DNA of 64,000 nucleotides from an uncultured Candidatus Saccharibacteria bacterium (GCA_964493145.1 CAZBMV010000001.1:54623-118622), one strand, 5' to 3'; positions 2,930-62,913 are shown, counted from the stretch's first letter. Notes: a model not told the origin generated them from the letters alone. Program-made: numbers and translations.

Positions 2930-3298
2930 CTATTTTTTGAGACTGTCTCTGATTTCCCTAAGGAGGAGAATTTCTTCGCTTGGCGAAGGTGCTTCTTGCT
3001 TCTGCGACTTTTGGAAACGATTGAGTGCACGCAGTGTGAGGAAGATAACGAAAGCAATGATGGTGAAATCAATCACCGCCTGAATGAATTTTCCGTACTG
3101 AAGTGATATCGTGCCAACCGATACGGAGAGGCTAGTAAAATCAAGACCACCGAGAAAGATGCCGATGATGGGCATGAACATCGTATCAACGAGCGATGAG
3201 ACGATTTTGCCGAATGCGGTACCGATAATGACCGCAACCGCAAGATCAACAACGTTGCCCCGAATCGCGAACGCTTTAAATTCTTCTAGTATTTTCAT
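2930..3298 (-). CDS. mscL: large-conductance mechanosensitive channel
   Basis: 122 aa. FKAFAIRGNVVDLAVAVIIGTAFGKIVSSLVD...MPIIG matches the MscL N-terminal signature almost residue for residue. Confidence 0.9.
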   Translation of the reverse strand: MKILEEFKAFAIRGNVVDLAVAVIIGTAFGKIVSSLVDTMFMPIIGIFLGGLDFTSLSVSVGTISLQYGKFIQAVIDFTIIAFVIFLTLRALNRFQKSQKQEAPSPSEEILLLREIRDSLKK

Positions 3299-3324
3299 AC
3301 ATAACAGTATACACTTTTCTAAAT

Positions 3325-4107
3325 ATGCTCACATACATTTTCATAGCAACACTCAGCATTGCACTACTTTCCCTCGTTGGAAGTTTTTTCTTTAACACAA
3401 AAGACACCGCAAACAAAACGCACACCTTCGTCCTCCCCGTTGCGGTCGGCGTCTTTCTCGGTGTCGTTTTTTTTGAACTTCTCCCAGAGACGTACGAAGC
3501 TTCTCACGTGTGGGGCCCTGTTGCCATTGCGTGCGGCTTTTTCGGATTTTACATACTCTCGCACATGCTCCACACATTCCATCACCACCATGCACATGAT
3601 GAAGACTCGTGCGTGGGAACCGGTGGCAAGATGCTTCTCATTGGTGATGCAATCCACAACGTGGCCGACGGCGTCGTCATCGCATCTGCATTCATGGTAA
3701 ATCCACTTGCGGGTGTTGTGACAACGGTGGGCATAGCACTCCATGAAATTCCTCAAGAAATTGCAGAGTTTGGCGTGCTCCTCCGTTCGGGATACTCACG
3801 CCAGAAAGCGCGTGTGCTCAATTTCATATCGGCGACAAGCGTTTTTGTCGGTGCGCTTTTCACCTATTTTTTTGCACAAACCACTGAGGGATACGTCTTC
3901 GTCCTCACCGGTATAGCAGCCGGTAACCTTCTTTATATTGCATCCGCTGATCTCATTCCCGAACTTCGCGAATCACACAAAGAGCACTTCGCCGCGACAC
4001 TCGTTGCAACGCTCGCGGGATTCGTACTCATCGGCGGACTTATTTCATACACACACGAGAACTTGCCTGAATACGGTAATTCTTCGGAAGAATTCCACGA
4101 TTTATAG
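3325..4107 (+). CDS. zupT: ZIP-family zinc/metal transporter (ZupT-like)
   Basis: 260 aa polytopic protein with a His-rich loop (HHHHAHDED) and the ZIP motifs HNVADG and HEIPQEIAEFGVLL. Confidence 0.75.
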   Translation: MLTYIFIATLSIALLSLVGSFFFNTKDTANKTHTFVLPVAVGVFLGVVFFELLPETYEASHVWGPVAIACGFFGFYILSHMLHTFHHHHAHDEDSCVGTGGKMLLIGDAIHNVADGVVIASAFMVNPLAGVVTTVGIALHEIPQEIAEFGVLLRSGYSRQKARVLNFISATSVFVGALFTYFFAQTTEGYVFVLTGIAAGNLLYIASADLIPELRESHKEHFAATLVATLAGFVLIGGLISYTHENLPEYGNSSEEFHDL

Positions 4108-4563
4108 ACCCCAAAGAAGACGGGCGATATAGTACCCAAATCCCGCACCTATCACAAAAATGAGAATGGCAGTGCCAATGATATCTGTTGAACTCATTCC
4201 TCCATTATACGTGAATGTATATTTCTGTCTCATTTGTTGACTTTAAAACGGGGTCATAGTATACATATGCCTTTCCATCGTACGAATTTCAGTGAAACAA
4301 CACAGGCAGTGTGCTCGGAACGAACGTTTTTGTCACACTGCCTGTGTGGTTTTGCAGGCATCTGTTCAAACAACAACCTGAGGTACGTTAGATGGAAAAT
4401 ACACAAGAAATAGACCTGAACAAAACCCAAGAACAAGGAGGCCTTGGGAATGGCAACGAGGGGAATCCACAGCACATCTCGCATCACCACGAGTTCGGAA
4501 AAATGCTCGCGGTAACGAGAATGTACTGGGGCATCGTAGAGTAGCCACATCAGGTCAACAGTC

Positions 4564-4592
4564 AAAGCCGGAGCATTCGCTCCGGCTTTTTT
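4564..4592. terminator. intrinsic terminator-like hairpin + T-run
   Basis: AAAGCCGGAGC-ATTC-GCTCCGGCTTTTTT. Confidence 0.5.
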
Positions 4593-4595
4593 ATT

Positions 4596-4613
4596 TGGGC
4601 GGCTACCGGGAAT
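4596..4613 (-). repeat. 18-nt duplicate of the tRNA-His 3' end (TGGGCGGCTACCGGGAAT), att-like
   Basis: Identical to 7335-7352 (the 3' end of the tRNA-His gene). A further 14-nt copy lies at 7061-7074 and an inverted 16-nt copy at 4745-4760. Confidence 0.55.
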
Positions 4614-4755
4614 ATCGGTCATTACATGACCAGTATCCGTTCAGGATATTTTTGTTCGTCTGACGACTCCAAAACTATCTCTGAACAGCTTCGATTCGCG
4701 TTACGGCTTTTCTGTTTCGTTGTCACCTCACAGAAAACCCTACGCCCGGTAGCCG

Positions 4756-4799
4756 CCCAGAATATAAAAAACTCCCGAAGGAGTTTTTTATATTCTGGG
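4756..4799. repeat. 20-bp perfect-stem hairpin (CCCAGAATATAAAAAACTCC-CGAAGG-GGAGTTTTTTATATTCTGGG)
   Basis: Inverted repeat seen directly; abuts the inverted tRNA-His 3' copy. Confidence 0.5.
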
Positions 4800-4888
4800 C
4801 GACGTCGTAGAGGACGTTAGAACTGTGTTTGAGAGGTTGGGGGATGCGAGTATTTATATTCCGACGTTCTTCTCCACCCCTGAGTGCA

Positions 4889-5503
4889 CTATTTCTTGAG
4901 TAGATACTTGAGCCAGACCGTTTTCTTTCCTGGGTTGGTCCAAGCATCTTGTTTGATGACTTTCAAATTATATTGCTGAAAAATTTCTTGCAACTTTTCT
5001 GGTTGCCAGTATGAGAAGAACCTCTGATACTCATACCCGTAATCATTTTCCACAACTACTTTTTCGTCGTCACCCTCTTTAAGAGCAATGTGGAGTATCC
5101 CGCTTGGTTTGAGTATGCGACAAATTTCACCAAAAACAAAATTGATTTTTTCTTTTGGAATATGGAGTAGCGACGCTTTTGCAAACACTCCATCAAAATA
5201 CTCGTCGGCATAAGGCAAGACGGAAAGCATATCTCCTTGCAGAAAAGTTGCTGATGGTAATTTCTCACGAGCAATCTTTAAGAGGCCTTCTGATAAATCA
5301 AACCCCTGTACATCAAAACCTCGGAGCGTGAGTTTCTTTGTTTCAACGCCAGGACCGCAACCTAAATCTAAAACTTTTGCATTTTGGAAAAGTGCTTCAC
5401 TAAAAAAGTCCACGAAGTCATTGTCCCAGCTATCGTTCTCGTGGTCCTTTGAGTAATCGCTGGCAATTTTGTTATATGTATCTGCAAGTATGTTCGTTTC
5501 CAT
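4889..5503 (-). CDS. class I SAM-dependent methyltransferase
   Basis: 204 aa with motif I VLDLGCGPG and the acidic post-I region; small-molecule MTase-like. Confidence 0.75.
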   Translation of the reverse strand: METNILADTYNKIASDYSKDHENDSWDNDFVDFFSEALFQNAKVLDLGCGPGVETKKLTLRGFDVQGFDLSEGLLKIAREKLPSATFLQGDMLSVLPYADEYFDGVFAKASLLHIPKEKINFVFGEICRILKPSGILHIALKEGDDEKVVVENDYGYEYQRFFSYWQPEKLQEIFQQYNLKVIKQDAWTNPGKKTVWLKYLLKK

Positions 5504-5540
5504 TCAAAAAGTATATCAAATTACCCCACACTCTGGTTCA

Positions 5541-6068
5541 CTACACATTAACCTCAATAATCCCTCCATCACCAATTTTGTCAGGAATACTTTTTCCTAA
5601 ATGTGCGAGTATCTGTTTAATTGGTCCACCGTGAGATACGACCGCTATCGTGTTGTATTCCTTCTGTGTTATTTTTCCAAACGTATCTAAAACTCTGTTT
5701 CTAAAATCAGCAAAACTTTCCCCTTCAGGGTCAGTATTCAAAGGGTCCTTGTGTGCCTCAACCACTTCAGGATATTTCTCCAAAGCTTCTGCCTTCGTAA
5801 GACCAGAGAGTACTCCGTAACTCCTTTCTTCAAGTCCATTCACAATCTCAACAGGACACTCTATTTTTGAGCTTATGATTTCGGCACTTTCCCTCGCTCT
5901 AATTAAAGGGCTGACGAAAATAATTTCAATGCCTTTGCCAACTAAATTATCAGCCGTTACGGTGAGCTGTTCCTTTCCCAAGTCAGTAAGGTTGTCATCG
6001 TAGCTCCCGCCGTATCTGTCTTCCACATCACCCGTCGTCTCCCCGTGCCTTACCAAAAATATTTTCAT
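5541..6068 (-). CDS. histidine phosphatase family protein (phosphoglycerate-mutase-like)
   Basis: 175 aa; N-terminal LVRHGET (RHG catalytic motif) and a downstream SHGG. Confidence 0.75.
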   Translation of the reverse strand: MKIFLVRHGETTGDVEDRYGGSYDDNLTDLGKEQLTVTADNLVGKGIEIIFVSPLIRARESAEIISSKIECPVEIVNGLEERSYGVLSGLTKAEALEKYPEVVEAHKDPLNTDPEGESFADFRNRVLDTFGKITQKEYNTIAVVSHGGPIKQILAHLGKSIPDKIGDGGIIEVNV

Positions 6069-6083
6069 ACTTACCTTAACTAT

Positions 6084-6992
6084 TTATTTAATCCAAGAAG
6101 CTAACGCGTCTGCCAAATTTTGCTCAAAACCGTTATACCCGTGGTCAGCATCACCGAGAATATTCGTCTCAACCTTGGGTGAGTTGAGTAAAGCCCCCTT
6201 TATCCTATTCATTGTCTCCTCAATTGAAACTACGAGGGCATCATCTTTCCTTCCCATAATTGCATATGTTGGAATGGTTATCTTTGCGAGGAGTGGGAGT
6301 GTATCACTGGGGTTATGAAAGTTGAATATTGCGACAGGCGAATGTTCTCCGCCAAGACTAATGTACGACTTCGCCGAAAGCGGACTTTCATCCCATAATG
6401 CAGGGTTCGGCAGAAGTTCATCGCCCCTCCCTTCGGCAACCATTTGTTGTGCGGTGTTCATATCTACCTCATAATTTTTATCCAACTTTATGAGACCGAC
6501 CATATCGGAGGGTGAAAGGAAAATGACCGAGGAAAGTCTTTCGTCATTTGCCTCTGCGGAATAATATGCAACCTTCGGAGCACCGAGACTGTGTCCCGAG
6601 AGATGAATGTTTGAGAAACCTCTTGACGAGACAAAATCAATCGCTGTTCGTATATCAATCAGACTGTCTTCAAATTTCTCATATGCGTTTCCAATTCTCA
6701 CAATCGTCCGCTTTCCGTCCATAATTTTCGTTAGGTCCTTCATCAGTTCGCAACCACGATTATTGAAAGCGAGGAATGCAATATTATTGCTTGTTAGAGT
6801 TTCGGCAATAGCATCTAGGAATTTGTTTTCATAAAAATTACCCGCCATTCCGTGAACGTGCACAAGGATTTTGCCAGTTGTCTGCTCTGGTTCATACAAA
6901 AGACCAACTAGCTCTAGACCGTCTTGTGTGACCATCCTATGGAATGATGTTTTCATAATGGTGATAGAAGTATACCAAAAATTAATTCTCAC
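6084..6992 (-). CDS. alpha/beta-fold hydrolase
   Basis: 302 aa; HVHGMAGN oxyanion-region motif and GHSLGA nucleophile elbow. Confidence 0.7.
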   Translation of the reverse strand: MRINFWYTSITIMKTSFHRMVTQDGLELVGLLYEPEQTTGKILVHVHGMAGNFYENKFLDAIAETLTSNNIAFLAFNNRGCELMKDLTKIMDGKRTIVRIGNAYEKFEDSLIDIRTAIDFVSSRGFSNIHLSGHSLGAPKVAYYSAEANDERLSSVIFLSPSDMVGLIKLDKNYEVDMNTAQQMVAEGRGDELLPNPALWDESPLSAKSYISLGGEHSPVAIFNFHNPSDTLPLLAKITIPTYAIMGRKDDALVVSIEETMNRIKGALLNSPKVETNILGDADHGYNGFEQNLADALASWIK

Positions 6993-7009
6993 TAGGGTAT
7001 CGTTTGGCT

Positions 7010-7059
7010 AGAACCAAAATGTCCCCTGTTTAGGGGATATTTTGGTTCTTTTTTTCTTT
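7010..7059 (+). terminator. strong plus-strand intrinsic terminator (11-bp outer + 6-bp inner stem, then TTTTTTCTTT)
   Basis: AGAACCAAAAT GTCCCCT GTTT AGGGGAT ATTTTGGTTCT TTTTTTCTTT. No plus-strand gene lies upstream. Confidence 0.45.
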
Positions 7060-7073
7060 AGGGCGGCTACCGG

Positions 7074-7163
7074 GTGAGAAAGTGCGGGGCACTTTTGCAA
7101 GAGGTTGTCGACAGTTTGAGGACACGAGAACTGTCATACAACCTGAACAGTTCCTGTAAGGAA
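7074..7163. ncRNA. structured repeat element, family 2, copy 1 (candidate small RNA / 3'-UTR element)
   Basis: GTGAGAAAGTGC-GGGG-GCACTTTTGCAAGAGGTTGTCGACAG...CTGTCATACAACCTGAACAG-TTC-CTGTAAGGAA. A second copy at 61283-61379 keeps the stems through compensatory changes. Confidence 0.35.
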
Positions 7164-7289
7164 TCGGCGTCCAACTCTAGTTCACTACGTTCACAAGAGT
7201 TACCTGCCCGCGGTTCGCTGGTTCGTCGCATTATGAGAGCGACTTACATCGCGAACCGTTCGATTCCGGACGCGAGCTCCGCTCGCTTA

Positions 7290-7345
7290 GCCGCCCAGAC
7301 ATGTGAAAAGCCCCTTACGGGGCCTTCACATGTCTGGGCGGCTAC
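7290..7345. repeat. 18-bp perfect inverted repeat (GCCGCCCAGACATGTGAA...TTCACATGTCTGGGCGGC) enclosing a GCCCC/GGGGC inner hairpin; overlaps the tRNA-His 3' end
   Basis: Seen directly. Likely processing or terminator structure downstream of tRNA-His on the minus strand. Confidence 0.5.
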
Positions 7346-7408
7346 CGGGAATCGAACCCGAGACACAAGTGCCACAAACTTGAGTTTTACCACTAAACTA
7401 TAGCCGCC
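7335..7408 (-). tRNA. tRNA-His (anticodon GTG), with extra 5' G
   Basis: RC reads GGCGGCTATAGTTTAGTGGTAAAACTCAAGTTTGTGGCACTTGTGTCTCGGGTTCGATTCCCGGTAGCCGCCCA. Cloverleaf folds, anticodon loop is TTGTGGC, T-loop is TTCGATT. Confidence 0.85.
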
Positions 7409-7437
7409 ATGTGCGCATAGTTATAGCGGTTTTCTTG

Positions 7438-8337
7438 TCACTTGTCGAGGTGTTCCCCTTTCAAAAAGCGCGTGCTGTCTTGAAAGACACTCCCCTCCTT
7501 GAACTCGTTGTGAAATTCGGATGGCAGAAGCTGAATGTCGTCGTCCGGTAAAATCCATCGCACTTCGTCTATTTCGTGCGCGTGAGTCTTCTCTCTTTCA
7601 TCGTGCGTAAGGTAATCAGCACCGTTTGCAATCTCAAAGAAAAATTCAACTGACTGTACTCCGCCGGTATTTACAAATGTGTACACGTATAAGAGTCTGC
7701 CTACCACCGGTTTCACGCCAAGCTCTTCTACGAGTTCCCGTTCTATACACTCTTTCGGATTTTCTCCAACATCAAGATGTCCCCCCGGAAGTGCGTAAAA
7801 ATCTCGCTCCGGGTGATGGACGGCGAGAAGTTTCCCATCGTGAATGATAACCGCGCGACTGCGGACGGTGTGTGTATGCATGGACGTAAGTATACAAGAA
7901 AAACGAGTGCGGGAGCACTCGTTTGATGGACATTCGTTTGGTGACTTTGGTGGAAGATCATTGAGTAAGCTTAAAACCATTGCGCGTTTTTCGGCAAAAT
8001 CAAAATGTGGGTGTGTTTGACTGCACCAATCAATCGCTCGCACCCATGCGCACACGAGGCGCCTCCCTTCCAGGGAGAGCCCTATGTACACTCCGGGGTT
8101 CCGGTAAAACCACTCAATGAAACAGGCCGATGCGTTGCACTCAGCCCGTATTGCCGCGAGTGCATTGTATGCTCTGCAAACGTTACGAAATTCAAACGCC
8201 AAGTACACCGTAATAACGGTAAAGCACACGACTACTCCCTGTATCATGTGAACCTCCCGAGAGAACGAATACTTCATATACTGTACACAATAAAAGAGAA
8301 ACATGGAACAATCTTCCCAAATCCTCTGCCCATACAA
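7438..8337 (-). CDS. NUDIX hydrolase; the functional protein probably starts at the internal Met (7881), giving ~147 aa
   Basis: C-terminal half carries the Nudix box GGHLDVGENPKECIERELVEELG. The N-terminal 150 aa of the long ORF is low-quality sequence running toward tRNA-Leu. Confidence 0.7.
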   Translation of the reverse strand: MYGQRIWEDCSMFLFYCVQYMKYSFSREVHMIQGVVVCFTVITVYLAFEFRNVCRAYNALAAIRAECNASACFIEWFYRNPGVYIGLSLEGRRLVCAWVRAIDWCSQTHPHFDFAEKRAMVLSLLNDLPPKSPNECPSNECSRTRFSCILTSMHTHTVRSRAVIIHDGKLLAVHHPERDFYALPGGHLDVGENPKECIERELVEELGVKPVVGRLLYVYTFVNTGGVQSVEFFFEIANGADYLTHDEREKTHAHEIDEVRWILPDDDIQLLPSEFHNEFKEGSVFQDSTRFLKGEHLDK

Positions 8338-8364
8338 AAAGACCGGCAGAAAGCCGGTCTTTTT
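8336..8364. terminator. hairpin + T-run (AAAAAGACCGGC-AGAA-AGCCGGTCTTTTT)
   Basis: Seen directly, between the tRNA-Leu 3' end and the NUDIX ORF. Confidence 0.5.
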
Positions 8365-8367
8365 GTA

Positions 8368-8454
8368 TGGTGCTCAGGAGAGGATTTGAACCTCCATGCC
8401 CGTGAAGGCGCTACCACCTCAAGGTAGTGCGTCTACCAATTTCGCCACCTGAGC
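8368..8454 (-). tRNA. tRNA-Leu (anticodon GAG), CCA encoded
   Basis: RC reads GCTCAGGTGGCGAAATTGGTAGACGCACTACCTTGAGGTGGTAGCGCCTTCACGGGCATGGAGGTTCAAATCCTCTCCTGAGCACCA. Long variable arm, anticodon loop CTTGAGG. Confidence 0.85.
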
Positions 8455-8511
8455 ATCTTTCAGGAAAAATCCTGAGAACGCAGTATAACTAATATTATCT
8501 TTATTTTCAAC

Positions 8512-8545
8512 AAAAACCGCGCGGCCTTTGGCCGCGCGGTTTTTG
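8512..8545. terminator. bidirectional intrinsic terminator (AAAAACCGCGCGGCC-TTT-GGCCGCGCGGTTTTT)
   Basis: Perfect 12-bp GC stem with an A-run on one side and a T-run on the other; lies 3' of rplS. Confidence 0.65.
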
Positions 8546-8555
8546 TTGGTACGTA

Positions 8556-9200
8556 TTATTTCGCTTCTTCTGTCGTTGCTTCAGTTGCCGGCTCTGTCGC
8601 TTCGGTAACTGGTGTTTCCGGCTCAACTTCTGTTGCGGTGTTTGTCTCTTCTGATGCTTTCGCTTCTTCCGCTACCTTTGCTGCGGCTTCTGCCTCTGCT
8701 TTTACCTTTGCTTCTTCAGCGAGTCGCGCCTCCTCCGCTGCCTTTGCGGCCGCTTCTTCTGCGGCGATACGTTCCCGCTCCGCCTTCATTTCAATTTCTG
8801 ATTCGGAAGAAAGACTCATGAGGCGCATACGACGCATCTGTCGCTTGATTTCACGAGCAACCTTCTCGCGGATGTAGTAGAGTTTCGCGCGTCGGACGGT
8901 GCTTCGTCTCACAATCTCAATCTTATCAATGAGCGGTGAATGGAGTGGGAAAATCTTTTCAACCCCGATGCCGTCCACAACCTTTCGTACCGTAAACGTG
9001 GCACCTGCCTCGCCACCATGCTTGCGCGCGAGCACAATTCCCTCAAACACCTGAATGCGTGTTTTGCCCTTATCCTCAATCTTCTGGTGCACGCGAACGG
9101 TGTCCCCCGCCTTGATGCCGAGATTCTTTCGGTCTTCCATGTTGACGGAAGAAATGGTGATTCCTGCTACGGTATTCATGATACGAATGACTAACTGCAA
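8556..9200 (-). CDS. rplS: 50S ribosomal protein L19 with ~90-aa Ala/Glu-rich C-terminal tail
   Basis: Core region [32 protein letters not shown]...TFTVRK...[13 protein letters not shown]...[10 protein letters not shown] matches L19. The true start may be the Met at 9179 (MNTVAG...). The tail is low-complexity [15 protein letters not shown]. Confidence 0.85.
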
Positions 9201-10656: not shown

Positions 10657-10968
10657 CTACTGGCTTATAACTCTAAATTCATCAAAATGTTTCTCCGGTG
10701 TCCGCCAATCAATCGCGAGTGATTCAATCTTCGCGAGCGGTGAACCTGTGTTCAGTGCCTCAATACTCCCCTTGAGTTCATCGGTGGTGCCCTGCAAAAC
10801 AACCTCAACCGAACCATCCTCACTATTTCGTACCCACCCGAAGAGGCCGTGTTCACGTGCGTACCGCTCAATGTAATCTCGGTATCCAACCCGCTGCACC
10901 TTCCCCTTTACGACAGCATGAATTTCTAAAAACATACCTGAAGTATACCTGTATTGAAATAATTTCAA
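10657..10968 (-). CDS. acyP: acylphosphatase
   Basis: VKGKVQRVGYR...GLFGWVRNSEDGSVEVVLQG signature; the start could instead be the Met at ~10935. Confidence 0.7.
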   Translation of the reverse strand: MKLFQYRYTSGMFLEIHAVVKGKVQRVGYRDYIERYAREHGLFGWVRNSEDGSVEVVLQGTTDELKGSIEALNTGSPLAKIESLAIDWRTPEKHFDEFRVISQ

Positions 10969-10998
10969 AAAACGGTACTATGGTGCGTACCGTTTTAA

Positions 10999-11071
10999 GG
11001 GCGCTTAGCTCAGTTGGTAGAGCAACTCGTTTACACCGAGAAGGTCAGGGGTTCGAGTCCCTTAGCGCCCA
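10999..11071 (+). tRNA. tRNA-Val (anticodon TAC)
   Basis: GGGCGCTTAGCTCAGTTGGTAGAGCAACTCGTTTACACCGAGAAGGTCAGGGGTTCGAGTCCCTTAGCGCCCA; cloverleaf folds with anticodon loop TTTACAC. Confidence 0.85.
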
Positions 11072-11291
11072 CAAAGAAAACCCGCTCTGTGGGTTTTTGA
11101 CTGGGCGCTAAGCACAGCACCTGCGTGCTGTGCGTGAGGGCTCGAAAAGAATTTGTATATTTTTTCTATACGAAATGAAAAAATACAAATTCTCGGGTAG
11201 AAAAAAGTTATGAACGTAGTGAATTACTTTTTGACACCGAGACCTCCACCGCCCACACATACAAAAAATCGCATCGGCGGTTTTTTGTTTT

Positions 11292-11314
11292 TGTGCCTCG
11301 ACCAGGAATCGAAC
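11292..11314 (-). repeat. 23-nt duplicate of the tRNA-Arg(TCT) 3' end (TGTGCCTCGACCAGGAATCGAAC)
   Basis: Identical to 11438-11460; lies 125 bp beyond the tRNA 3' end and itself sits inside a CCAGGAATCGAA...TTCGATTCCTGG inverted repeat. Confidence 0.55.
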
Positions 11315-11439
11315 ATTACATGTTCAGTACACCTTGTCGCTATTTTGTTTCCTTACGTCACAAAATAGCTGGCAAGGTCTTCGATTCCTGGACCCAATCA
11401 CAGAAAAACCGGCATGGAGCCGGTATTTTTGTGATTGTG

Positions 11440-11512
11440 TGCCTCGACCAGGAATCGAACCTGGAATAACGGCTTAGAAGTCCGCAGTTATATCCATTTA
11501 ACTATCGAGGCA
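11440..11512 (-). tRNA. tRNA-Arg (anticodon TCT), imperfect anticodon stem
   Basis: RC reads GCCTCGATAGTTAAATGGATATAACTGCGGACTTCTAAGCCGTTATTCCAGGTTCGATTCCTGGTCGAGGCA. Acceptor and T-arm are canonical; loop is CTTCTAA. Confidence 0.6.
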
Positions 11513-11569
11513 TAACTTATCTGTTTAGAACGAACGTAGTGTACAGAGGAGACTGGCTCCCCGCAAGAC

Positions 11570-11950
11570 CTACTGCATCTCAATTCTTTCCACAACAACC
11601 TCATCGCTACTTTGTGGTTCTTCGGGCACGACGGGCTTTTCAATATACACGACCTCCTTACGTTCACTTCGCAAACGGTTAAAGATTATTTCCCTCTCCT
11701 TAAACCTGCTACCCTGTTCCCGAACCGCACGTTCGTCGTACTGAAGTGGTGTTTCTGAAACAGTAACGCCTTCTTCGCGTTCAATGATCTGCGTGTGAAA
11801 ATCGTACGCAATGTACGCAATGCCACACACAAGTATGACAAACGCACACGTTAAGCCAATCAACCAATCACGTACTGGGTTTACAAACTCCCGTGCACGA
11901 TACTGCGTCATTCCTTTTTTCTTTTTTAAACCAAGAAAAGCAAACTTCAT
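11570..11950 (-). CDS. hypothetical membrane protein, last gene of the pilMNO operon (PilP position)
   Basis: 126 aa with one TM helix; start overlaps the stop of the preceding gene (translational coupling). Confidence 0.4.
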   Translation of the reverse strand: MKFAFLGLKKKKGMTQYRAREFVNPVRDWLIGLTCAFVILVCGIAYIAYDFHTQIIEREEGVTVSETPLQYDERAVREQGSRFKEREIIFNRLRSERKEVVYIEKPVVPEEPQSSDEVVVERIEMQ

Positions 11951-12477
11951 ACCTTTTTAAATTTTGTTACGCGTACCTCGCACGCCCCCTTCCACAACAG
12001 CCCACTTTCTGTCGCACCCTTTTCCAGCCGAACGGAACTCAACACACCCTGATATGGAAGATGCTCAAGAATTTTAAATGTGTGAAGAACAGCATCATGT
12101 TCGCCCTCAATACTCACATTCACGACGAGCGTTTCAAACGTTTCGTCTATTGGCTGTACCGTGAGCGAGTTTGTCACGAGCGTGACTCGTTGTTCTCGTG
12201 CGATATCCTCAACGAGAGTGAGGAACGTAATAACGTCCGCTTCTTCAAGGATTCTTGAAGCGACAAATTCTCTCTCCGCCTTCGTATTCTCAAGAGCGGT
12301 CGTGAGAGTTGCGAGCGACTTTTTGTGGAACTCAATCTCCGCCTGCTCAGTGCTCTTTGTGTGAAGTACGACTTTTCGTTTCTCCACTTCACGAACAAAG
12401 AACGCTGTTGCAATGATGGTGCCGCAGAGAAAGAGTCCTCCGATAGCAGCAACAATTTTTGAATGGTGTGAAAACAT
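11947..12477 (-). CDS. pilO: type IV pilus assembly protein PilO-like
   Basis: 176 aa: N-terminal TM helix, coiled coil and periplasmic domain; sits between pilN and the last operon gene. Confidence 0.45.
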   Translation of the reverse strand: MFSHHSKIVAAIGGLFLCGTIIATAFFVREVEKRKVVLHTKSTEQAEIEFHKKSLATLTTALENTKAEREFVASRILEEADVITFLTLVEDIAREQRVTLVTNSLTVQPIDETFETLVVNVSIEGEHDAVLHTFKILEHLPYQGVLSSVRLEKGATESGLLWKGACEVRVTKFKKV

Positions 12478-12486
12478 ATGAATGAC

Positions 12487-13020
12487 TTATGGTGCCACGG
12501 TGACGGTAAGGGTGAACGGGAGATTCACATCACGCGCGAGGTCTGCAATGGGAATATTCGCAGCTTCAAAAAGATCGGTATTCTCCACCGCCCGCTTAAA
12601 AGATACGAGTGTCTCACGCGTTGTCGCGGTACCCTGTACTTGGATGGTATCAATTCGCCCCTTGACCTCTTGTATAAGAAACGTCTTAAATGAAATACCC
12701 TGCGGTGCACGTTCTTCAAGAGTTGCAATAGCGTGACTCGGTGATATTGTTTCTTGCTGTTTTTTTAGTTGCGTGAGAATTTTCGTTATATCGCTTATCT
12801 CATGTGTTGCGGTCGCCAACATTTGCTCTTCTATGCGCTCTTTTTCCGACACAAGTGCCATAGAGTGAATTTGTGCACCGACGAGCACATACGTCGGCAC
12901 GTGTGCGACACCAAGAATGACGGCGACACATCCGAAGAGAAACGAGAGTGTCGCTCCTGCGCGGTACATGTACTCCCGCTTAACCACTCTGTGTCCTTCT
13001 GATGGAATGAGATTAATCAT
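12487..13020 (-). CDS. pilN: type IV pilus assembly protein PilN
   Basis: Begins MINLIPSE (canonical PilN INLLP start), followed by a TM helix and coiled coil. Confidence 0.6.
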   Translation of the reverse strand: MINLIPSEGHRVVKREYMYRAGATLSFLFGCVAVILGVAHVPTYVLVGAQIHSMALVSEKERIEEQMLATATHEISDITKILTQLKKQQETISPSHAIATLEERAPQGISFKTFLIQEVKGRIDTIQVQGTATTRETLVSFKRAVENTDLFEAANIPIADLARDVNLPFTLTVTVAP

Positions 13021-14117: not shown

Positions 14118-14177
14118 ACGATGTACTTATATTATACACGTATACGCGGGATTCTCGCCCTTCAATTCCACACAAAA

Positions 14178-14762: not shown

Positions 14763-14764
14763 AC

Positions 14765-15109: not shown

Positions 15110-15111
15110 GT

Positions 15112-15516: not shown

Positions 15517-15573
15517 AGCACGTTTGGAAGTCTTCGTTTTTTCTGGTACTATCCTTGCTACAAAAGAATACAC

Positions 15574-15660
15574 GGAAGGGTGACAGAGTGGTCGATTGTA
15601 CCTGTCTTGAAAACAGGAGTCTGGGAAACCGGACCGCGAGTTCGAATCTCGCCCCTTCCG
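15574..15660 (+). tRNA. tRNA-Ser (anticodon TGA), long variable arm
   Basis: GGAAGGGTGACAGAGTGGTCGATTGTACCTGTCTTGAAAACAGGAGTCTGGGAAACCGGACCGCGAGTTCGAATCTCGCCCCTTCCG. Confidence 0.85.
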
Positions 15661-15787
15661 CAAAACTAGAAAATTCAGGGTTCTTCCCTGGATTTTTTAG
15701 TTTCTGCGCAGGAGATTCGAAGCTGTTCAGAGATATTTTGGGAGTGATAGCGAACAAAAATATCCTGAACGGGTACTGAAACTGTAA

Positions 15788-15811
15788 GTTTCGAATCTCG
15801 CCCCTTCCGCC
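15788..15811 (+). repeat. near-identical (22/24) duplicate of the tRNA-Ser 3' end, ~130 bp downstream; followed by a terminator hairpin at 15821-15850
   Basis: GTTTCGAATCTCGCCCCTTCCGCC versus the tRNA 3' end AGTTCGAATCTCGCCCCTTCCGCA. Confidence 0.55.
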
Positions 15812-21237: not shown

Positions 21238-21310
21238 CTCAGCCGGTAGAGCAGCTCCCTTTTAAGGAGAAGGTCCCAGGTTCGATCCCTGGTGGGCGGA
21301 CAAAATTTTT
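21238..21310 (+). tRNA. tRNA-Lys (anticodon TTT)
   Basis: CCGCCCATAGCTCAGCCGGTAGAGCAGCTCCCTTTTAAGGAGAAGGTCCCAGGTTCGATCCCTGGTGGGCGGA; loop CTTTTAA. Confidence 0.8.
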
Positions 21311-21340
21311 AAAGAAAATTTTGGACGCACAAAAAACTGT

Positions 21341-21366
21341 CCGGGGGACAGTTTTTAAGGGATCGA
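21341..21366 (+). terminator. intrinsic terminator AAAAAACTGTCC-GGG-GGACAGTTTTT
   Basis: Seen directly, 30 nt after tRNA-Lys. Confidence 0.55.
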
Positions 21367-21430
21367 AGACCTTGCGAGATACCTTTGCGAGTGAAGCGAA
21401 GCAAAGTATCCGCAAGGTGTACTGCTCGTG

Positions 21431-21447
21431 TAACGAGAGATACCCTG
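21431..21447 (+). repeat. 17-nt direct duplicate of the tRNA-Lys 3' end (CCCTGGTGGGCGGACAA)
   Basis: Identical to 21297-21313. Confidence 0.5.
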
Positions 21448-21549
21448 GTGGGCGGACAAGCGTTAAGAAACCCTGACCTTCGTCAGGGTTTTAGCTTGTC
21501 CGAGCCGCAGCGATGTTTTGCCGACCGCAAGGAAGCAAAACCGCGAGGC

Positions 21550-61207: not shown

Positions 61208-61282
61208 TCTTCATTCTGAAGCTGGGCGCTTCAAGCACGTGTGACTCTTTCAGTGCATCGGATTCTTCAAGGTCGGCTATCG

Positions 61283-61379
61283 TGAGAAAGTCCGGGGGAC
61301 TTTCGCAAGAGGTTGTCGACAAATTTTGGTTTGTGTAAACCAAAATTTGTCATACAACCTGAACAGGTTCTGTAAGAAA
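61283..61379. ncRNA. structured repeat element, family 2, copy 2
   Basis: GTGAGAAAGTCC-GGGG-GGACTTTCGCAAGAGGTTGTCGACAA-[hairpin AATTTTGGTTT-GTGTA-AACCAAAATTT]-GTCATACAACCTGAACAG-GTT-CTGTAAGAAA. Outer stem GGTCGGCTATC/GATAGCCGACC overlaps the comM stop. Confidence 0.4.
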
Positions 61380-61389
61380 GATAGCCGAC

Positions 61390-62913
61390 CTATGTTTTGG
61401 CGCGATAGTGGAGTGCTTCAAGAACGTGCGCTTCCTTGAGGTCGGGCGAATCGTCCAAGTCAGCGATTGTCTGCGAAACTTTAATGAGGCGATGGTAACT
61501 TCGCGGGGAGAGTCCAAGTTTTTCTGCTGAGCGCTTGAGAAGGTCGCGAACCGCGGGTGTCATGTGCACGCGTTCATCAATATCACGTGACGACATTTCT
61601 CCGTTTGCGTTGATGCCACTTCCCCTGAATCGCTCGTACTGGCGTTTGCGCGCGTGCATGATTTGTTCACGTGCACGGTCAGTTTCACCACGAGTTCCAG
61701 GAGAGGATACCCTCTTTTCCGTGAGCGTATTGTAGTCAACGTGCGGTACCGAGAGCCAGAGATCAATACGGTCAAGAATTGGCCCGGAAATTTTGTGCTT
61801 GTACGTTTGGAGCATCTGTTGCGTGTAGTCGCCGCGCTCATCGCCACCGCGAGTTGGGTTCATTGCCGCGACGAGAATAAAATCTGCGGGAAAAAGTGCG
61901 CTCGCCTGAACACGAGAAATGGACACGACCCTGTCCTCAAGCGGTTGACGGAGCGCATCTATCGCACGTCGCTCAAATTCGGGAAACTCATCCAGAAAGA
62001 GCACCCCCTTATGGGCGAGGGTCACCTCTCCCGGACGCGGGTGCGTACCGCCACCGACGAGCGCGGTGTATGACGCGGTGTGATGTGGTGCACGAAAGGG
62101 CGGGCAGAGTGAAACGCTCTCCCCAGTTCCTGCAACCGAGTGAATGGAAGTCACCTCGAGCGCCTCTTCGCGCGTGAGTGGCGGAAGAATTCCTCGGAGT
62201 GCTCTCGCGAGCATCGTCTTCCCCGTCCCCGGTGGACCGACCATGATGACGTTGTGCCTCCCGGCGGCAGCGATCATAAGTCCGCGCTTCGCAGACTCTT
62301 GCCCGCGAACGTCTTCAAGACGGACGGCACTTTCACTCCAGAGTGTCTCAATTTGGGTTGGTGGTATTTCGGGTATGCGTGCGTGATCATCACGCGTCGT
62401 ATCAATGTGCCTGATAACCTCGGTGAGCGTGCGCGCAGGCGTGATGCGTATTCCTGAAATGAGTGCCGCCTCCTCTCTGTTCTCATAGGGGACAACGACT
62501 TCGGAAAAGTGTGCGGATAGCGCTTTGCGCACAATGGGGAGGACACCGCGTACCGGGCGGAGTGTACCATCAAGGGAGAGTTCACCAATGAAGCAGATAC
62601 TTGAGACATCGGCGCGCAGTTCTTCTTTCGCCATGAGGTACGAAATCGCAATGGGCAAATCAAAGAGAGGACCTTCCTTCTTGAGGTCTGCGGGAGCGAG
62701 CGAAATAACCACTTTGTGATTCTCGCCCTTTGGTGCGGAGAAGCCGGAATTCTTAAGGGCGCTGTTCACCCTGTCGCGCGCTTCCTCCACCGCCTTCCCC
62801 GGAAGACCGACAATGGTAAACGCAAACAGACCTCGCGAGAGGTCTGTCTCCACCGTAACGATGTCGGCGCTCGTGAGCGAAGGCTGTGCGGAGTGAACAC
62901 GTGCGATCGCCAT
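61390..62913 (-). CDS. comM: YifB/ComM-family Mg-chelatase-like AAA+ ATPase
   Basis: N-terminal Lon-protease-like region, Walker A GPPGTGKTMLA, and a C-terminal Mg-chelatase subunit ChlI-like domain. Confidence 0.8.
   Translation of the reverse strand: MAIARVHSAQPSLTSADIVTVETDLSRGLFAFTIVGLPGKAVEEARDRVNSALKNSGFSAPKGENHKVVISLAPADLKKEGPLFDLPIAISYLMAKEELRADVSSICFIGELSLDGTLRPVRGVLPIVRKALSAHFSEVVVPYENREEAALISGIRITPARTLTEVIRHIDTTRDDHARIPEIPPTQIETLWSESAVRLEDVRGQESAKRGLMIAAAGRHNVIMVGPPGTGKTMLARALRGILPPLTREEALEVTSIHSVAGTGESVSLCPPFRAPHHTASYTALVGGGTHPRPGEVTLAHKGVLFLDEFPEFERRAIDALRQPLEDRVVSISRVQASALFPADFILVAAMNPTRGGDERGDYTQQMLQTYKHKISGPILDRIDLWLSVPHVDYNTLTEKRVSSPGTRGETDRAREQIMHARKRQYERFRGSGINANGEMSSRDIDERVHMTPAVRDLLKRSAEKLGLSPRSYHRLIKVSQTIADLDDSPDLKEAHVLEALHYRAKT

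What the first reader, a model, noticed from the sequence alone, without database searches (positions are those of the whole stretch)
4596..7408. 2.7-kb three-gene islet bounded by duplicated tRNA-His 3' ends (att-like), with no integrase
- tRNA-His lies at 7335-7408 on the minus strand.
- Exact direct copies of its 3' end lie at 7061-7074 (14 nt) and 4596-4613 (18 nt, TGGGCGGCTACCGGGAAT), and an inverted 16-nt copy at 4745-4760.
- The segment between the distal copy and the tRNA carries only a SAM methyltransferase, a histidine-phosphatase-family protein and an alpha/beta hydrolase, all on the minus strand and all accessory-type functions.
- It also contains copy 1 of the family-2 element and strong hairpins (4756-4799, 7290-7345, and a plus-strand terminator at 7010-7059 with no plus-strand gene upstream).
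- This layout is the classic footprint of integrase-mediated insertion into a tRNA gene, here without a recognisable integrase. It may be a decayed island or an element mobilised in trans.
Basis: partly seen in the sequence, partly recalled or inferred. Interest (0 to 1): 0.55.

Follow-up and report, generated by a model that had tools for sequence, protein, structure and literature searches.

The report
Cargo cassette beside tRNA-His, no integrase
In this tiny-genome (CPR) bacterium, three foreign-looking accessory genes sit in a swap-prone slot after the tRNA-His gene; the slot is bracketed by small folded DNA modules that copy the tRNA's 3' end, and no integrase was found, which suggests an undescribed way of exchanging genes.

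Summary
The 14-mer GGGCGGCTACCGGG occurs four times, all within 2.8 kb of tRNA-His (0 of 100 shuffles reach this count).

The repeats are not the two ends of one decayed island. They are arms of two small structured "tail modules", M1 (7061-7335) and M2 (4596-4801). Each module carries an inverted and a direct copy of the tRNA 3' tail around a folded core.

Such modules follow 35% of tRNAs in this Kaiserbacteria/Paceibacterota clade, and their tail copies match each genome's own tRNA. They are near-absent in more distant Patescibacteria and match no Rfam family.

The three genes form a low-GC cargo cassette (4796-7060). It ends in a conserved 74-nt element, CE, whose last bases (CGCCCA) equal the tRNA-His 3' end. 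All 11 CE copies found lie 3' of tRNA-His, after unrelated cargo genes, sometimes in arrays of two or three.

The closest relative with sequence at this site (L007) keeps the flanks but carries different cargo. No recombinase was found in the window or in any of the islands examined.

Most likely this is recombination at the tRNA tail end, with the enzyme encoded elsewhere (integron-like logic). Homologous, Campbell-type exchange is not excluded.

The parts
7336..7408 (-). tRNA-His(gtg), with G-1 encoded and no CCA. Its last 24 nt (the 'tail', from the T-loop to the discriminator base) is the sequence that is copied downstream.
   Evidence: ARAGORN; Rfam tRNA model, 64.3 bits; sequence read.
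7298..7335 (-). Intrinsic terminator hairpin directly after the tRNA. Its stem extends into the tRNA tail and the following anti-tail (inverted-repeat arms 7288-7307 and 7325-7344).
   Evidence: (I4).
7258..7297 (-). Anti-tail of module M1, in two parts. TGGGCGGCTA (7288-7297) and TCCGGAATCGAAC (7258-7270) together complement the whole tRNA tail. They are separated by a 17-nt hairpin (7271-7287).
   Evidence: The same layout is 82.5% conserved in L007 4180-4258.
7167..7257 (-). Type-2 structured core of module M1.
   Evidence: Homologous cores follow tRNA-His in L001 and L007, and other tRNAs in L003, L009, L011, L025 and L031; blastn match to L011.
7160..7166 (-). 5' part (CGATTCC) of the direct tail copy 'd' of M1.
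   Evidence: The uninterrupted d, CGATTCCCG(A/G)TAG.., is seen in L001, L007 and L014.
7075..7159 (+). Nested 85-nt element, a type-1b relative of the type-1 core, inserted into d of M1 in the opposite orientation. Its boundary is ambiguous by up to 2 C.
   Evidence: 91-93% identical copy at 61282-61379 with unrelated flanks. The same family interrupts the CE of L082.
7061..7074 (-). 3' part (CCCGGTAGCCGCCC) of d of M1.
6993..7060 (-). Cassette leader: an A-run, the hairpin 7010-7049 and the hydrolase 5' region. The last ~55 nt before the hydrolase start ATG (6958) are homologous to the hydrolase leader in L082 and L083, where the gene directly follows tRNA-His.
6084..6992 (-). Alpha/beta hydrolase (ABH); likely start at the ATG at 6958.
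   Evidence: Pfam. Homologues of 78-88% identity in metagenome contigs; several homologues lie directly 3' of tRNA-His, tRNA-Ser or tRNA-Gln.
5541..6068 (-). Histidine-phosphatase-family protein (HP).
   Evidence: Pfam His_Phos_1, E = 7e-42. ABH and HP are adjacent at 84% nucleotide identity in L096.
4889..5503 (-). SAM-dependent methyltransferase (MT).
   Evidence: Pfam. A homologue of 79% amino-acid / 76% nucleotide identity in L009 lies between tRNA-Arg and tRNA-Val, a different tRNA-flank site.
4796..4869 (-). Cassette-end element (CE), 74 nt, ending in CGCCCA, which equals the 3' end of tRNA-His. Proposed right junction of the cassette.
   Evidence: Alignment A1. nhmmer finds 11 copies, all 1.0-2.8 kb 3' of a same-strand tRNA-His wherever a tRNA is on the contig.
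4754..4801 (-). Terminator hairpin (22-bp stem). Its base pairs the CE end (CGCCCA) with the anti-tail (TGGGCG).
   Evidence: I2. 85% similar to the post-CE terminator of L007.
4745..4759 (-). Anti-tail (TGGGCGGCTACCGGG) of module M2.
4614..4696 (-). Type-1 structured core of M2: GAATCGAAG, then long hairpin P2, then GATAC, then hairpin P3 (5-bp stem GGTCA/TGACC, loop TGTAA).
   Evidence: Covariance-model hit, 76.2 bits, E = 2.8e-15; covariation across the family.
4596..4613 (-). Direct tail copy d2 (ATTCCCGGTAGCCGCCCA) of M2.
61270..61391 (+). Orphan module. A type-1b core lies between 12-bp inverted arms AGGTCGGCTATC / GATAGCCGACCT, which resemble a tRNA-His tail. It holds the paralogue of the nested element at 7075-7159.
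11293..11438 (-). Type-1 tail module of tRNA-Arg(tct): anti-tail 11380-11391, core 11308-11386, 22-nt direct copy 11293-11314. Shown as context for the family.
15662..15810 (+). Type-1 tail module of tRNA-Ser(tga): core 15715-15795, 21-nt direct copy 15790-15810. Its P2 hairpin is ~88% identical to that of M2, although the tRNA tail it carries is different.
21302..21457 (+). Type-1 tail module of tRNA-Lys(ttt): core 21361-21441, 15-nt direct copy 21443-21457.

Best explanation
**What is there.** The 3' flank of tRNA-His is a gene-exchange slot. Read in the direction of the tRNA, it holds:
1. the tRNA;
2. tail module M1;
3. one cargo cassette (hydrolase, phosphatase, methyltransferase) that ends in a conserved 74-nt cassette-end element, CE;
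4. tail module M2.

**Tail modules.** They are small (about 130-270 nt), non-coding and structured. Each consists of a terminator hairpin, a sequence complementary to the tRNA tail, a folded core and a direct copy of the tail. They home to the 3' ends of many tRNA genes in this clade.

**The cassette.** It belongs to a shared pool of [ORF(s)+CE] units that are found only downstream of tRNA-His.

**Most likely mechanism (inferred).**
- Recombination takes place at the very end of a tail sequence (...GCCGCCC/A) and at the matching end of CE (...GTCGCCCA), each of which is followed by a hairpin.
- It is carried out by an enzyme encoded elsewhere in the genome.
- New units enter next to a tail copy and push older ones outward. 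This is integron-like logic, with the tRNA tail playing the part of attI and CE the part of attC.

**Shown:** the anatomy, the clade-wide distribution, the structural covariation, the foreign composition, the cargo swap between relatives, and the absence of a recombinase in cis.

**Inferred:** the crossover site, a circular or single-stranded intermediate, and the enzyme.
For: **1. The repeats are real and local**.

**2. The tail copies are specific and clade-wide.**
- Among 109 tRNAs of the window and relatives L001-L031, 38 have a direct and 26 an inverted exact copy (12 nt or more) of their own tail within 400 nt downstream; 20 have both.
- With tails of other tRNAs the expected numbers are 0.6 and 0.8.
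- In outgroup Patescibacteria the counts are 5/191 and 1/191.
- The copies follow each genome's own tRNA sequence.

**3. The type-1 core has a conserved fold with compensatory changes.**
- 93.6% of cells are paired, against 67% in shuffles (0 of 500 reach the observed value).
- 12 of 15 pairs show changes on both sides; slid controls give 24-45%.
- A covariance model finds 47 copies, all in the clade. 32 lie within 400 nt 3' of a same-strand tRNA, against 2.2 expected at random.

**4. The small elements move.**
- Copies at 7075-7159 and 61282-61379 are 91-93% identical but have unrelated flanks.
- One copy splits the direct tail copy of M1; another splits the CE of L082.
- Different core types occupy the same tRNA in different genomes.

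**5. CE marks a pool of cassettes tied to tRNA-His.**
- All 11 copies lie 3' of tRNA-His, after unrelated ORFs, in arrays of 2 (L012) and 3 (L029), and in two different synteny backgrounds.
- Within-array CE identity (71-85%) is no higher than between genomes (up to 89%).
- The CE end covaries with the tRNA-His end in L029 (CACCCA).

**6. The cargo is swapped.** L007 keeps the M1 flank (82.5% identity) and the CE/terminator flank (85%) but carries a different gene. L011, L014 and L021 have yet other cargo before the conserved far-flank genes, homologues of window ORFs 1024-1566 and 1687-2589.

**7. The cassette looks foreign.** GC is 0.418 against 0.485 for the window; GC3 is 0.39-0.42 against 0.48-0.63 in core genes.

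**8. No recombinase was found.** Pfam gave no integrase or transposase domain in the islet genes, the 50 largest window ORFs scanned, or about 30 island-region ORFs in relatives.
Against: - No recombinase candidate was identified. Only 64 kb of this genome and contig fragments of relatives could be read.
- CE has no stable consensus hairpin, unlike attC sites.
- In L012 and L029 the cassette nearest the tRNA is flanked by perfect direct repeats of 55 and 66 nt. These fit homologous (Campbell-type) or duplicative insertion at least as well as a short-core site-specific exchange.
- In the window itself the two proposed junctions share only GGGCG/GCCC.
- No strain-level empty site or circular junction was seen.
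- The enrichment of hydrolase homologues next to tRNAs is modest (6/65 against 10/441, p = 0.01; two pairs are near-duplicates).
- The covariation test used instances partly chosen for pairing, so it overstates the paired fraction.
- All relatives are metagenome-assembled contigs.
Confidence: 0.5

Rival explanations
1. Homologous-recombination cassette exchange. DNA taken up from relatives replaces or adds cargo by RecA/RuvABC-dependent crossover between conserved anchors (the tRNA-His gene and tail modules on one side, CE and its terminator on the other), or by Campbell-type integration of circles through a shared 55-66-nt leader. No dedicated recombinase is needed. The tail modules are separate selfish elements.
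For: - Perfect direct repeats of 55 nt (L012) and 66 nt (L029) flank the cassette nearest the tRNA.
- The flanks are conserved while the cargo is swapped between the window and L007.
- RuvA, RuvB and RuvC, together with type IV pilus/secretion genes of the kind that can take up DNA, are present in the window.
- No recombinase was found anywhere.
Against: - The anchors are short (about 70 nt) and only 70-89% identical between genomes, which is poor substrate for homologous recombination.
- CE is strongly conserved as a non-coding sequence after unrelated genes in two synteny backgrounds. An anchor role alone does not explain that.
- Junctions fall precisely at the tail end or CE end.
- CE copies within an array are not homogenised.
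Confidence: 0.22
2. One reading: one classical tyrosine-integrase island inserted into tRNA-His, bounded by att duplicates at 4596-4613 and the tRNA, whose integrase has since been lost (a decayed island).
For: - Direct repeats of the tRNA 3' end flank accessory, low-GC genes.
- The segment is absent from relatives.
Against: - There is no integrase remnant in the islet. Pfam gave no integrase or transposase match for the three islet genes or the two small ORFs scanned in its non-coding flanks (4626-4820, 7074-7403).
- The repeats are arms of small structured modules that also occur at tRNAs with no island at all.
- There is an inverted copy, which a simple att duplication does not produce.
- The same integrase-less layout with other cargo recurs in L007, L012, L018, L029 and L081-L083.
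- The 14-nt copy is part of an arm split by a nested element.
Confidence: 0.08
3. The tail modules and CE are functional RNAs rather than recombination sites. Examples would be trailers that control folding or processing of CCA-less tRNA precursors through alternative tail/anti-tail pairing, or 3'-UTR elements of the cargo mRNAs. The islet would then simply lie in a fast-evolving intergenic region.
For: - Strong structural covariation.
- The tRNA-sense strand folds better than its complement (mean -2.7 kcal/mol, p = 0.002; 28 against 19 G-U pairs).
- Position and orientation after tRNAs are fixed.
- In this window the tRNAs with a full tail module (a direct tail copy) lack an encoded CCA, whereas the two with an encoded CCA (Leu, Arg-gcg) have no direct tail copy.
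Against: - Strong terminators separate the tRNA from each module.
- No conserved promoter was found: the -10-like part lies in a variable stem.
- There are nested insertions, orphan copies and near-identical copies at unrelated sites.
- Core types turn over at orthologous tRNAs.
- No Rfam family matches.
- It does not explain why unrelated cargo genes each end in CE, and only at tRNA-His.
Confidence: 0.12
4. Chance or assembly artefact: short repeats that arise by coincidence or by mis-assembly around conserved tRNA sequence.
For: Several relatives' contigs break just after tRNA-His (L001, L003, L006, L008), which shows that the locus is hard to assemble.
Against: - 0 of 100 shuffles reach the observed count.
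- The same architecture is seen in more than 30 independent assemblies, with genome-specific tail sequences.
- Compensatory changes in the stems.
Confidence: 0.02

Closest known systems
Tycheposons and tRNA-seeded genomic islands of Prochlorococcus (Hackl et al., bioRxiv 10.1101/2020.12.28.424599)
   Same: - Streamlined genomes in which variable cargo accumulates next to tRNA genes.
- Repeated partial tRNAs mark successive insertions, with newer elements pushing older ones outward.
- Many cargo stretches lack an integrase (read).
   Different: - Tycheposons encode their own tyrosine recombinase and replication genes, and use roughly 40-nt partial-tRNA att sites.
- Here no recombinase was found in any island examined.
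- The tail repeats come with an inverted partner and a folded core.
- Cassettes are single ORFs or small operons that end in a conserved 74-nt element.
Integrons and CALINs (attI, attC, IntI)
   Same: - Arrays of co-oriented, mostly single-ORF cassettes.
- Each cassette ends in a recognisable 3' element.
- Arrays are anchored at one fixed site.
- The cassettes carry no recombinase.
- The 3' elements within an array are as divergent as those between genomes.
   Different: - No intI gene next to the anchor.
- The anchor is the end of a tRNA gene.
- CE is conserved in primary sequence and has no stable imperfect hairpin, whereas attC is conserved in structure and not in sequence.
- No GTTRRRY core.
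- Long (55-66 nt) direct repeats flank some cassettes.
IMEX elements such as CTX-phi, which integrate at dif using host XerCD and a folded single-stranded att site
   Same: - The enzyme is supplied in trans.
- An element-borne inverted pair that mimics the target duplex would leave two direct copies and one inverted copy of the target. That is what is seen at each tail module (the tRNA tail, the anti-tail, and the direct copy d).
   Different: - The target is a tRNA tail, not dif.
- No phage genes, and no hits in IMG/VR.
- The analogy is recalled from the literature and was not tested here.
REPINs/REP elements and other small structured repeats mobilised in trans (RAYT), and IS200/IS605-derived PATEs
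   Same: Short non-coding hairpin-forming repeats, multiple diverged copies per genome, no transposase in cis, and a conserved short motif next to a hairpin (here GTAC followed by hairpin P3).
   Different: - The outer inverted arms are not a fixed terminal repeat. They are copied from whichever tRNA the module follows.
- The association with tRNA 3' ends is strict.
- No RAYT or TnpA was seen in the window.

Membership tests
tRNA-integrating genomic island (tyrosine integrase, attL/attR) | Direct repeat of the tRNA 3' segment at both ends of the inserted DNA | tested here: met
   14- and 18-nt exact copies at 7061-7074 and 4596-4613. They are, however, arms of small modules that also exist where there is no island.
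tRNA-integrating genomic island (tyrosine integrase, attL/attR) | Integrase gene (or a recognisable remnant) inside the element, usually next to the tRNA | tested here: not met
   Pfam on all islet ORFs and the small ORFs scanned in its flanks gave no recombinase. None in the other window ORFs scanned or in about 30 island-region ORFs of relatives.
tRNA-integrating genomic island (tyrosine integrase, attL/attR) | Presence/absence polymorphism among relatives, and deviating composition | tested here: met
   The three genes are absent after tRNA-His in L001-L031, which carry other cargo there. GC is 0.418 against 0.485; GC3 is 0.39-0.42.
Integron / CALIN | intI integrase gene adjacent to the attachment site | tested here: not met
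   The upstream neighbour of tRNA-His is a NUDIX hydrolase (window, L007, L012, L018) or a cobalamin adenosyltransferase (L029, L083).
Integron / CALIN | attC: an imperfect hairpin conserved in structure (R''-L''/L'-R') with a GTTRRRY core | tested here: not met
   CE is conserved in sequence but has no consensus fold (alifold -1.7 kcal/mol). It ends in CGCCCA, not GTTRRRY.
Integron / CALIN | Array of co-oriented cassettes, each an ORF plus a 3' recombination element | tested here: met
   L029 has three and L012 two ORF+CE units on the tRNA strand. The window has one unit with three ORFs.
Tycheposon | Element-encoded tyrosine recombinase plus replication/packaging module | tested here: not met
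   No such domains in any island ORF scanned.
MITE (miniature inverted-repeat transposable element) | Terminal inverted repeats shared by all copies, and a short fixed-length target-site duplication | tested here: not met
   The outer inverted arms differ between copies and equal the local tRNA tail. No fixed target-site duplication was seen at the nested insertions.
Any Rfam RNA family | Match to a curated covariance model | tested here: not met
   Only the 8 tRNAs reach gathering score. No module or CE is matched by any non-miRNA family at E <= 10 over 3800-8600, or by any family at E <= 0.05 over 10900-22200.
IMEX-type folded single-strand att site using a host recombinase | Host Xer-type recombinase acts on a hairpin that mimics the target duplex; the integration intermediate is single-stranded | not testable with these tools
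   Only the footprint (two direct copies and one inverted copy) is compatible. No enzyme or intermediate could be examined.

The most novel reading that the evidence does not exclude
Kaiserbacteria-like CPR bacteria possess a previously undescribed gene-cassette system anchored on the 3' end of tRNA genes.
- Single-ORF cassettes marked by a conserved 74-nt end element are inserted and exchanged at the tRNA-His tail.
- A superfamily of small folded 'tail modules' presents a hairpin copy of the tRNA tail as the recombination substrate.
- All of this is driven by a recombinase encoded elsewhere, or by a host enzyme.

This would be an integron-like platform built on tRNA genes, in organisms thought to be almost free of mobile elements.
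Probability: 0.3. Interest if true: 0.85.

Novelty: new variant of a known kind. Interest (0 to 1): 0.6.

Why it matters
CPR/Patescibacteria have very small genomes and few recognised mobile elements, so how they gain accessory genes is an open question.

This locus points to a concrete and testable route. A fixed slot at a tRNA 3' end receives interchangeable cargo that is tagged by a conserved end element and carries no integrase of its own. A clade-wide family of structured repeats copies tRNA tails around the same sites.

If the recombination is site-specific, the enzyme and its short tRNA-end target would be a new recombination system, and possibly a useful tool.

If it is homologous exchange, the locus shows how tRNA genes and small repeats act as portable homology anchors in reduced genomes.

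Either way, tRNA-flank annotation in these lineages needs to account for these modules.

Tried and rejected
1. **The conserved 38-nt repeat next to the tail copies (D6) as a promoter** (TTACA, 17 nt, TAnnTTTG). Rejected: the -10-like part lies in a covarying stem and is absent in several copies, for example L028. The conserved parts are GTAC and the P3 loop.
2. **CE as a decayed tRNA-His pseudogene or partial-tRNA attP.** Global alignment to tRNA-His is no better than shuffles (z about 0). Only the terminal hexamer matches.
3. **CE as a hairpin like attC.** No consensus fold.
4. **Phage or plasmid carriers.** The type-1 junction pattern gave 76 matches in IMG/VR, as expected by chance, and none passed the structure filter. 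The CE pattern gave 0 matches.
5. **Known RNA families.** None.
6. **Exact-protein look-ups** for the NUDIX, phosphatase and methyltransferase proteins, to find the source genome or strain variants: not on record.
7. **Integrase search** in the islet, the window and the relatives' islands: nothing.
8. **A conserved neighbour of the hydrolase** that might be the mobilising enzyme. Only a 107-aa ORF recurs (8 loci), and no recombinase family.
9. **Literature searches** for tRNA-tail repeats or cassettes in CPR found nothing relevant.
10. **Small-ribozyme, T-box and bridge-RNA resemblances** were considered from memory. They were dropped because the defining motifs are absent.

Full report
**1. 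Observation**

ARAGORN and the Rfam tRNA model place tRNA-His(gtg) at 7336-7407 on the minus strand. G-1 is encoded at 7408 and there is no encoded CCA. The 14-mer GGGCGGCTACCGGG, the complement of the tRNA's last 14 nt, occurs exactly at 4597-4610, 7061-7074 and 7336-7349, and inverted at 4745-4758. It occurs nowhere else in the 64 kb. Allowing two mismatches there are 5 matches against 0.18 expected, and 0 of 100 shuffles reach 5.

The three minus-strand ORFs are a SAM methyltransferase (4889-5503), a His_Phos_1 phosphatase (5541-6068) and an alpha/beta hydrolase (6084-6992; probable start at the ATG at 6958). The segment 7074-7163 has a 91-93% identical copy at 61282-61379.

**2. The pattern is not unique to tRNA-His**

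In the same window, three other tRNAs carry exact direct copies of their own 3' ends 125-142 nt downstream: tRNA-Arg(tct) (22 nt), tRNA-Ser(tga) (21 nt) and tRNA-Lys(ttt) (15 nt). Arg also has an exact 12-nt inverted partial copy; Ser and Lys have shorter 10-nt ones.

Ribosomal protein L19 identifies the organism as a member of Candidatus Kaiserbacteria/Paceibacterota in the CPR/Patescibacteria, with 85-93% identity to several metagenome-assembled genomes. The order L19, tRNA-Leu, NUDIX, tRNA-His is conserved in many relatives.

| Group | tRNAs with at least 250 nt downstream | Direct tail copy (12 nt or more, within 400 nt) | Inverted copy | Both |
|---|---|---|---|---|
| Window + L001-L031 | 109 | 38 | 26 | 20 |
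| Same, control with tails of other tRNAs (expected) | | 0.6 | 0.8 | |
| More distant Patescibacteria (L032-L080) | 191 | 5 | 1 | 1 |

The copies track each genome's own tRNA sequence. For tRNA-His the copied tail reads CCCGGTAGCCGCCC in the window, CCCTGTAGGCACCC in L011, TCCCGGTGGTCGCCC in L024 and TCCCGATAGTCACCC in L029.

**3. Anatomy of a tail module**

On the tRNA-sense strand a module reads as follows:
1. the tRNA;
2. an intrinsic terminator hairpin;
3. an anti-tail, the complement of the T-loop, the 3' strand of the T-stem and often the acceptor strand, frequently split by a small hairpin;
4. a structured core;
5. a direct tail copy, 'd';
6. a second hairpin.

Several core types exist. 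The best defined is type 1. It consists of ..TCGAA(G/A), a long hairpin P2, GGTGTAC(T), and a 5-bp hairpin P3 with loop YGTAR. The 3' strand of P3 is the start of d.

Evidence for type 1:
- A strict pattern search gave 15 hits against 0 in shuffled sequence.
- On a 22-sequence alignment, 93.6% of cells pair, against 67% in shuffles (0 of 500 reach the observed value). 12 of 15 pairs show changes on both sides, and slid controls give 24-45%. The caveat is that the instances were partly selected for pairing.
- A covariance model finds 47 copies at E <= 0.01, all in the window or L001-L031. 32 lie within 400 nt 3' of a same-strand tRNA (random expectation 2.2; maximum 8 in 1000 trials).
- The tRNA-sense strand folds better than its complement (mean -2.7 kcal/mol, p = 0.002).
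- No Rfam family matches any module.

**4. The modules behave as mobile DNA**

- The 85-nt element at 7075-7159 is a near-copy of 61282-61379, and the flanks of the two copies are unrelated.
- At tRNA-His this element sits inside the direct tail copy of module M1, splitting CGATTCC | CCCGGTAGCCGCCC. In L001, L007 and L014 that arm is uninterrupted.
- A member of the same family splits the cassette-end element of L082.
- Different core types occupy the same tRNA in different genomes. For Arg-tct, type 1 is found in the window, L003, L011, L021 and L029, and other types in L009 and L024.
- The P2 hairpins of the M2 module (His tail) and the tRNA-Ser module are about 88% identical. Their arms and P3 stems nevertheless match different tRNAs, with compensatory changes.

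- 7061-7074 is the 3' part of the split direct arm of M1 (7061-7335).
- 4745-4759 is the anti-tail of M2, and 4596-4613 is its direct arm (M2 spans 4596-4801).

**5. The cargo unit**

A blastn search of the locus against the relatives showed that 4796-4869, just after the methyltransferase stop codon, is a conserved element, here called CE (alignment).

- A profile search finds 11 copies in all sequence held. Every copy lies 1.0-2.8 kb 3' of a same-strand tRNA-His (10 of 10 where a tRNA is on the contig), directly after the stop codon of unrelated ORFs.
- L012 has two ORF+CE units and L029 has three.
- CE arrays occur in two synteny backgrounds. The gene upstream of tRNA-His is NUDIX in the window, L007, L012 and L018, and a cobalamin adenosyltransferase in L029 and L083.
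- CE ends in CGCCCA, the last bases of tRNA-His plus the following A. In L029 both the tRNA end and the first CE read CACCCA.
- CE has no detectable similarity to the rest of tRNA-His and no stable consensus fold.
- CE copies within an array (71-85% identity) are no more alike than copies from different genomes (up to 89%).

The window cassette is therefore best delimited as 4796-7060: a leader hairpin, the hydrolase, the phosphatase, the methyltransferase and CE. It lies between the tail copy at 7061 and the terminator/anti-tail of M2.

**6. Comparative evidence that the cargo is exchangeable and foreign**

- None of L001-L031 has the three genes after tRNA-His. L011, L014 and L021 have 3.5-3.8 kb of other genes there, before the conserved far-flank genes (homologues of window ORFs 1024-1566 and 1687-2589). 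Their cargo includes an MsrA/B fusion, DUF305, a MauE/glutaredoxin protein, a photolyase-related protein and a flavin reductase.
- L007 is the closest relative with sequence at this site. It has the same M1 flank (82.5% over 157 nt) and the same CE/terminator flank (85%), but a different 221-aa cargo gene.
- L018 and L012 show the same layout (cargo, then CE, a terminator and a type-1 module with a His tail) with other cargo: DUF7689 and an SRPBCC-like protein in L018, an unknown protein and a patatin in L012. L018 also keeps a first tail module between the tRNA and the cargo, whereas in L012 the cargo follows the tRNA directly.
- Hydrolase homologues of 78-88% identity exist in metagenome contigs. 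In L082 and L083 the gene directly follows tRNA-His, is followed by CE, and shares about 55 nt of leader with the window.
- In L096 the hydrolase and phosphatase are adjacent at 84% nucleotide identity.
- More distant hydrolase homologues sit directly after tRNA-Ser or tRNA-Gln: 6 of 65 against 10 of 441 background ORFs, p = 0.01.
- The methyltransferase has a homologue of 79% amino-acid identity in L009, between tRNA-Arg and tRNA-Val.
- The cassette has GC 0.418 against 0.485 for the window, in the lowest 3% of same-size windows; only the oriC region is lower. Its GC3 is 0.39-0.42 against 0.48-0.63 in core genes.

**7. No recombinase**

Pfam scans found no integrase, resolvase or transposase domain in any of these sets:
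- the islet ORFs;
- the 50 largest window ORFs scanned;
- about 30 ORFs from the tRNA-flank islands and their immediate neighbourhoods in relatives.

 The window otherwise carries housekeeping genes, including dnaA/dnaN, polA and ruvABC, and a type IV secretion-like cluster.

**8. Mechanism**

*Shown.* There is a fixed slot after tRNA-His. Junctions fall precisely at a tail end or a CE end, and each such end is followed by a hairpin. Cassettes come from a shared pool. Small structured modules copy tRNA tails.

*Inferred.* Recombination between the tail end (...GCCGCCC/A) and the CE end (...GTCGCCCA) is catalysed in trans, with new units entering next to a tail copy. The footprint of two direct copies and one inverted copy of the target is what a folded hairpin att site would leave, as for integron attC or CTX-phi. 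This point rests on knowledge of those systems and was not tested here.

*Counter-evidence.*
- In L012 and L029 the cassette nearest the tRNA is flanked by perfect repeats of 55 and 66 nt that start exactly at the tail or CE end. In L082 there is a comparable repeat of about 50 nt at roughly 78% identity. These fit homologous (Campbell-type) or duplicative insertion as well.
- CE is not hairpin-like.
- No enzyme, circle or empty site was seen.

I therefore give 0.5 to the trans-acting, tail-end recombination model, 0.22 to homologous exchange, 0.12 to a purely RNA-functional reading of the modules, 0.08 to the decayed-integrase-island reading and 0.02 to artefact.

**9. Comparison with known systems**

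The closest described system is the tycheposon / tRNA-seeded island of Prochlorococcus. It shares tRNA anchoring, partial-tRNA repeats and stacked insertions, but those elements encode their own recombinases. Integrons share the cassette-array logic, but intI, the attC structure and the core site were each tested here and not met. REPIN and PATE-type repeats share the trans-mobilised structured-repeat idea, but they have fixed termini. Five literature searches found no description of tRNA-tail modules or tRNA-His cassette arrays in CPR. The library is incomplete, so absence from it is weak evidence.

**10. Verdict**

The locus is more structured and more widespread in kind than a single att scar. 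I classify it as a new variant of a known kind (tRNA-anchored accessory islands), with a realistic chance (about 0.3) that it represents a distinct integrase-in-trans cassette system of CPR bacteria.

Noticed in passing
window 40845-52575: Type IV secretion-like gene cluster on the minus strand: VirB4/TraG-type ATPase (44496-46292) and TrbL/VirB6-like protein (47932-50400), surrounded by several ORFs with no Pfam match (40845-41993, 42723-43733, 50201-51706, 51703-52575). It could be relevant to DNA transfer in this organism.
   Followed up: partly
window 35000-39500: Likely chromosomal origin region. dnaN (35874-36965) and dnaA (37245-38624) lie here, together with the lowest GC of the window (0.38-0.42).
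   Followed up: partly
window 21528-22025: Tandem array of partial type-2-like module pieces just beyond the tRNA-Lys tail module. The unit GGGGTCGCGAGTGCTTA..GAATTAGGAACAGCAGTCTGGGAGACTGCTGTTCCGTGACGACA is repeated 3-4 times (repeat families D3-D5).
   Followed up: no
window 21136-21210 (minus strand): A type-1 core copy (41.4 bits) lies upstream of tRNA-Lys in the opposite orientation and follows no tRNA. It ends in the hairpin GGAAAAGTGCCCCGCACTTTTCC, which abuts the 5' end of tRNA-Lys. The reverse complement of that hairpin also starts the nested element at 7077-7097.
   Followed up: partly
window 11073-11259: The module after tRNA-Val is degenerate. Its arms (GAGGGCTCGAA / CGAGACCTCCACCGCCCAC) match the tRNA-Val tail of other genomes (L009 and L010: TTCGAGCCCTCCATCGCCCAC) better than the window's own tRNA-Val tail.
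   Followed up: partly
window 16473-16792 and 16911-16936: The space between the convergent tRNA-Arg(gcg) and tRNA-Gly holds further module pieces, including a type-1 hit at 16624-16682 and an anti-tail TGGTGCC for the CCA-bearing Arg tail. A 26-nt copy of the 5' part of tRNA-Gly lies 71 nt upstream of that gene.
   Followed up: no
window 28670-28748, 31931-32009, 61104-61182: A 79-nt repeat family (62-77% identity). Each copy sits just after the 3' end of a plus-strand gene, and the third is next to the orphan module at 61270-61391. It may be another gene-end element.
   Followed up: no
window 40107-40144, 40756-40793, 53594-53631, 59750-59787: Family of 38-nt perfect or near-perfect palindromes (CTTATATTATAATTCCCCATGGGGAATTATAATATAAG) in intergenic positions.
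   Followed up: no
window 3285-4595: The variable region after tRNA-His extends beyond the finding. The ZIP transporter (3325-4107, plus strand) and the non-coding stretch with hairpin 4295-4352 also have no counterpart in relatives. Conserved sequence resumes at about 3284 (matches in L011 and L021).
   Followed up: partly
L001, L003, L006, L008 (contig ends): Several relatives' contigs end from under 100 nt to about 700 nt after tRNA-His. This is as expected if the locus is heterogeneous within populations and breaks assemblies.
   Followed up: no
L029 13355-13420 and 14325-14390; L012 11873-11927 and 13016-13070: Perfect direct repeats of 66 nt (L029) and about 55 nt (L012) begin exactly at a tRNA-tail end or a CE end and flank the cassette nearest the tRNA. 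They are unexplained by a simple short-core site-specific exchange.
   Followed up: partly
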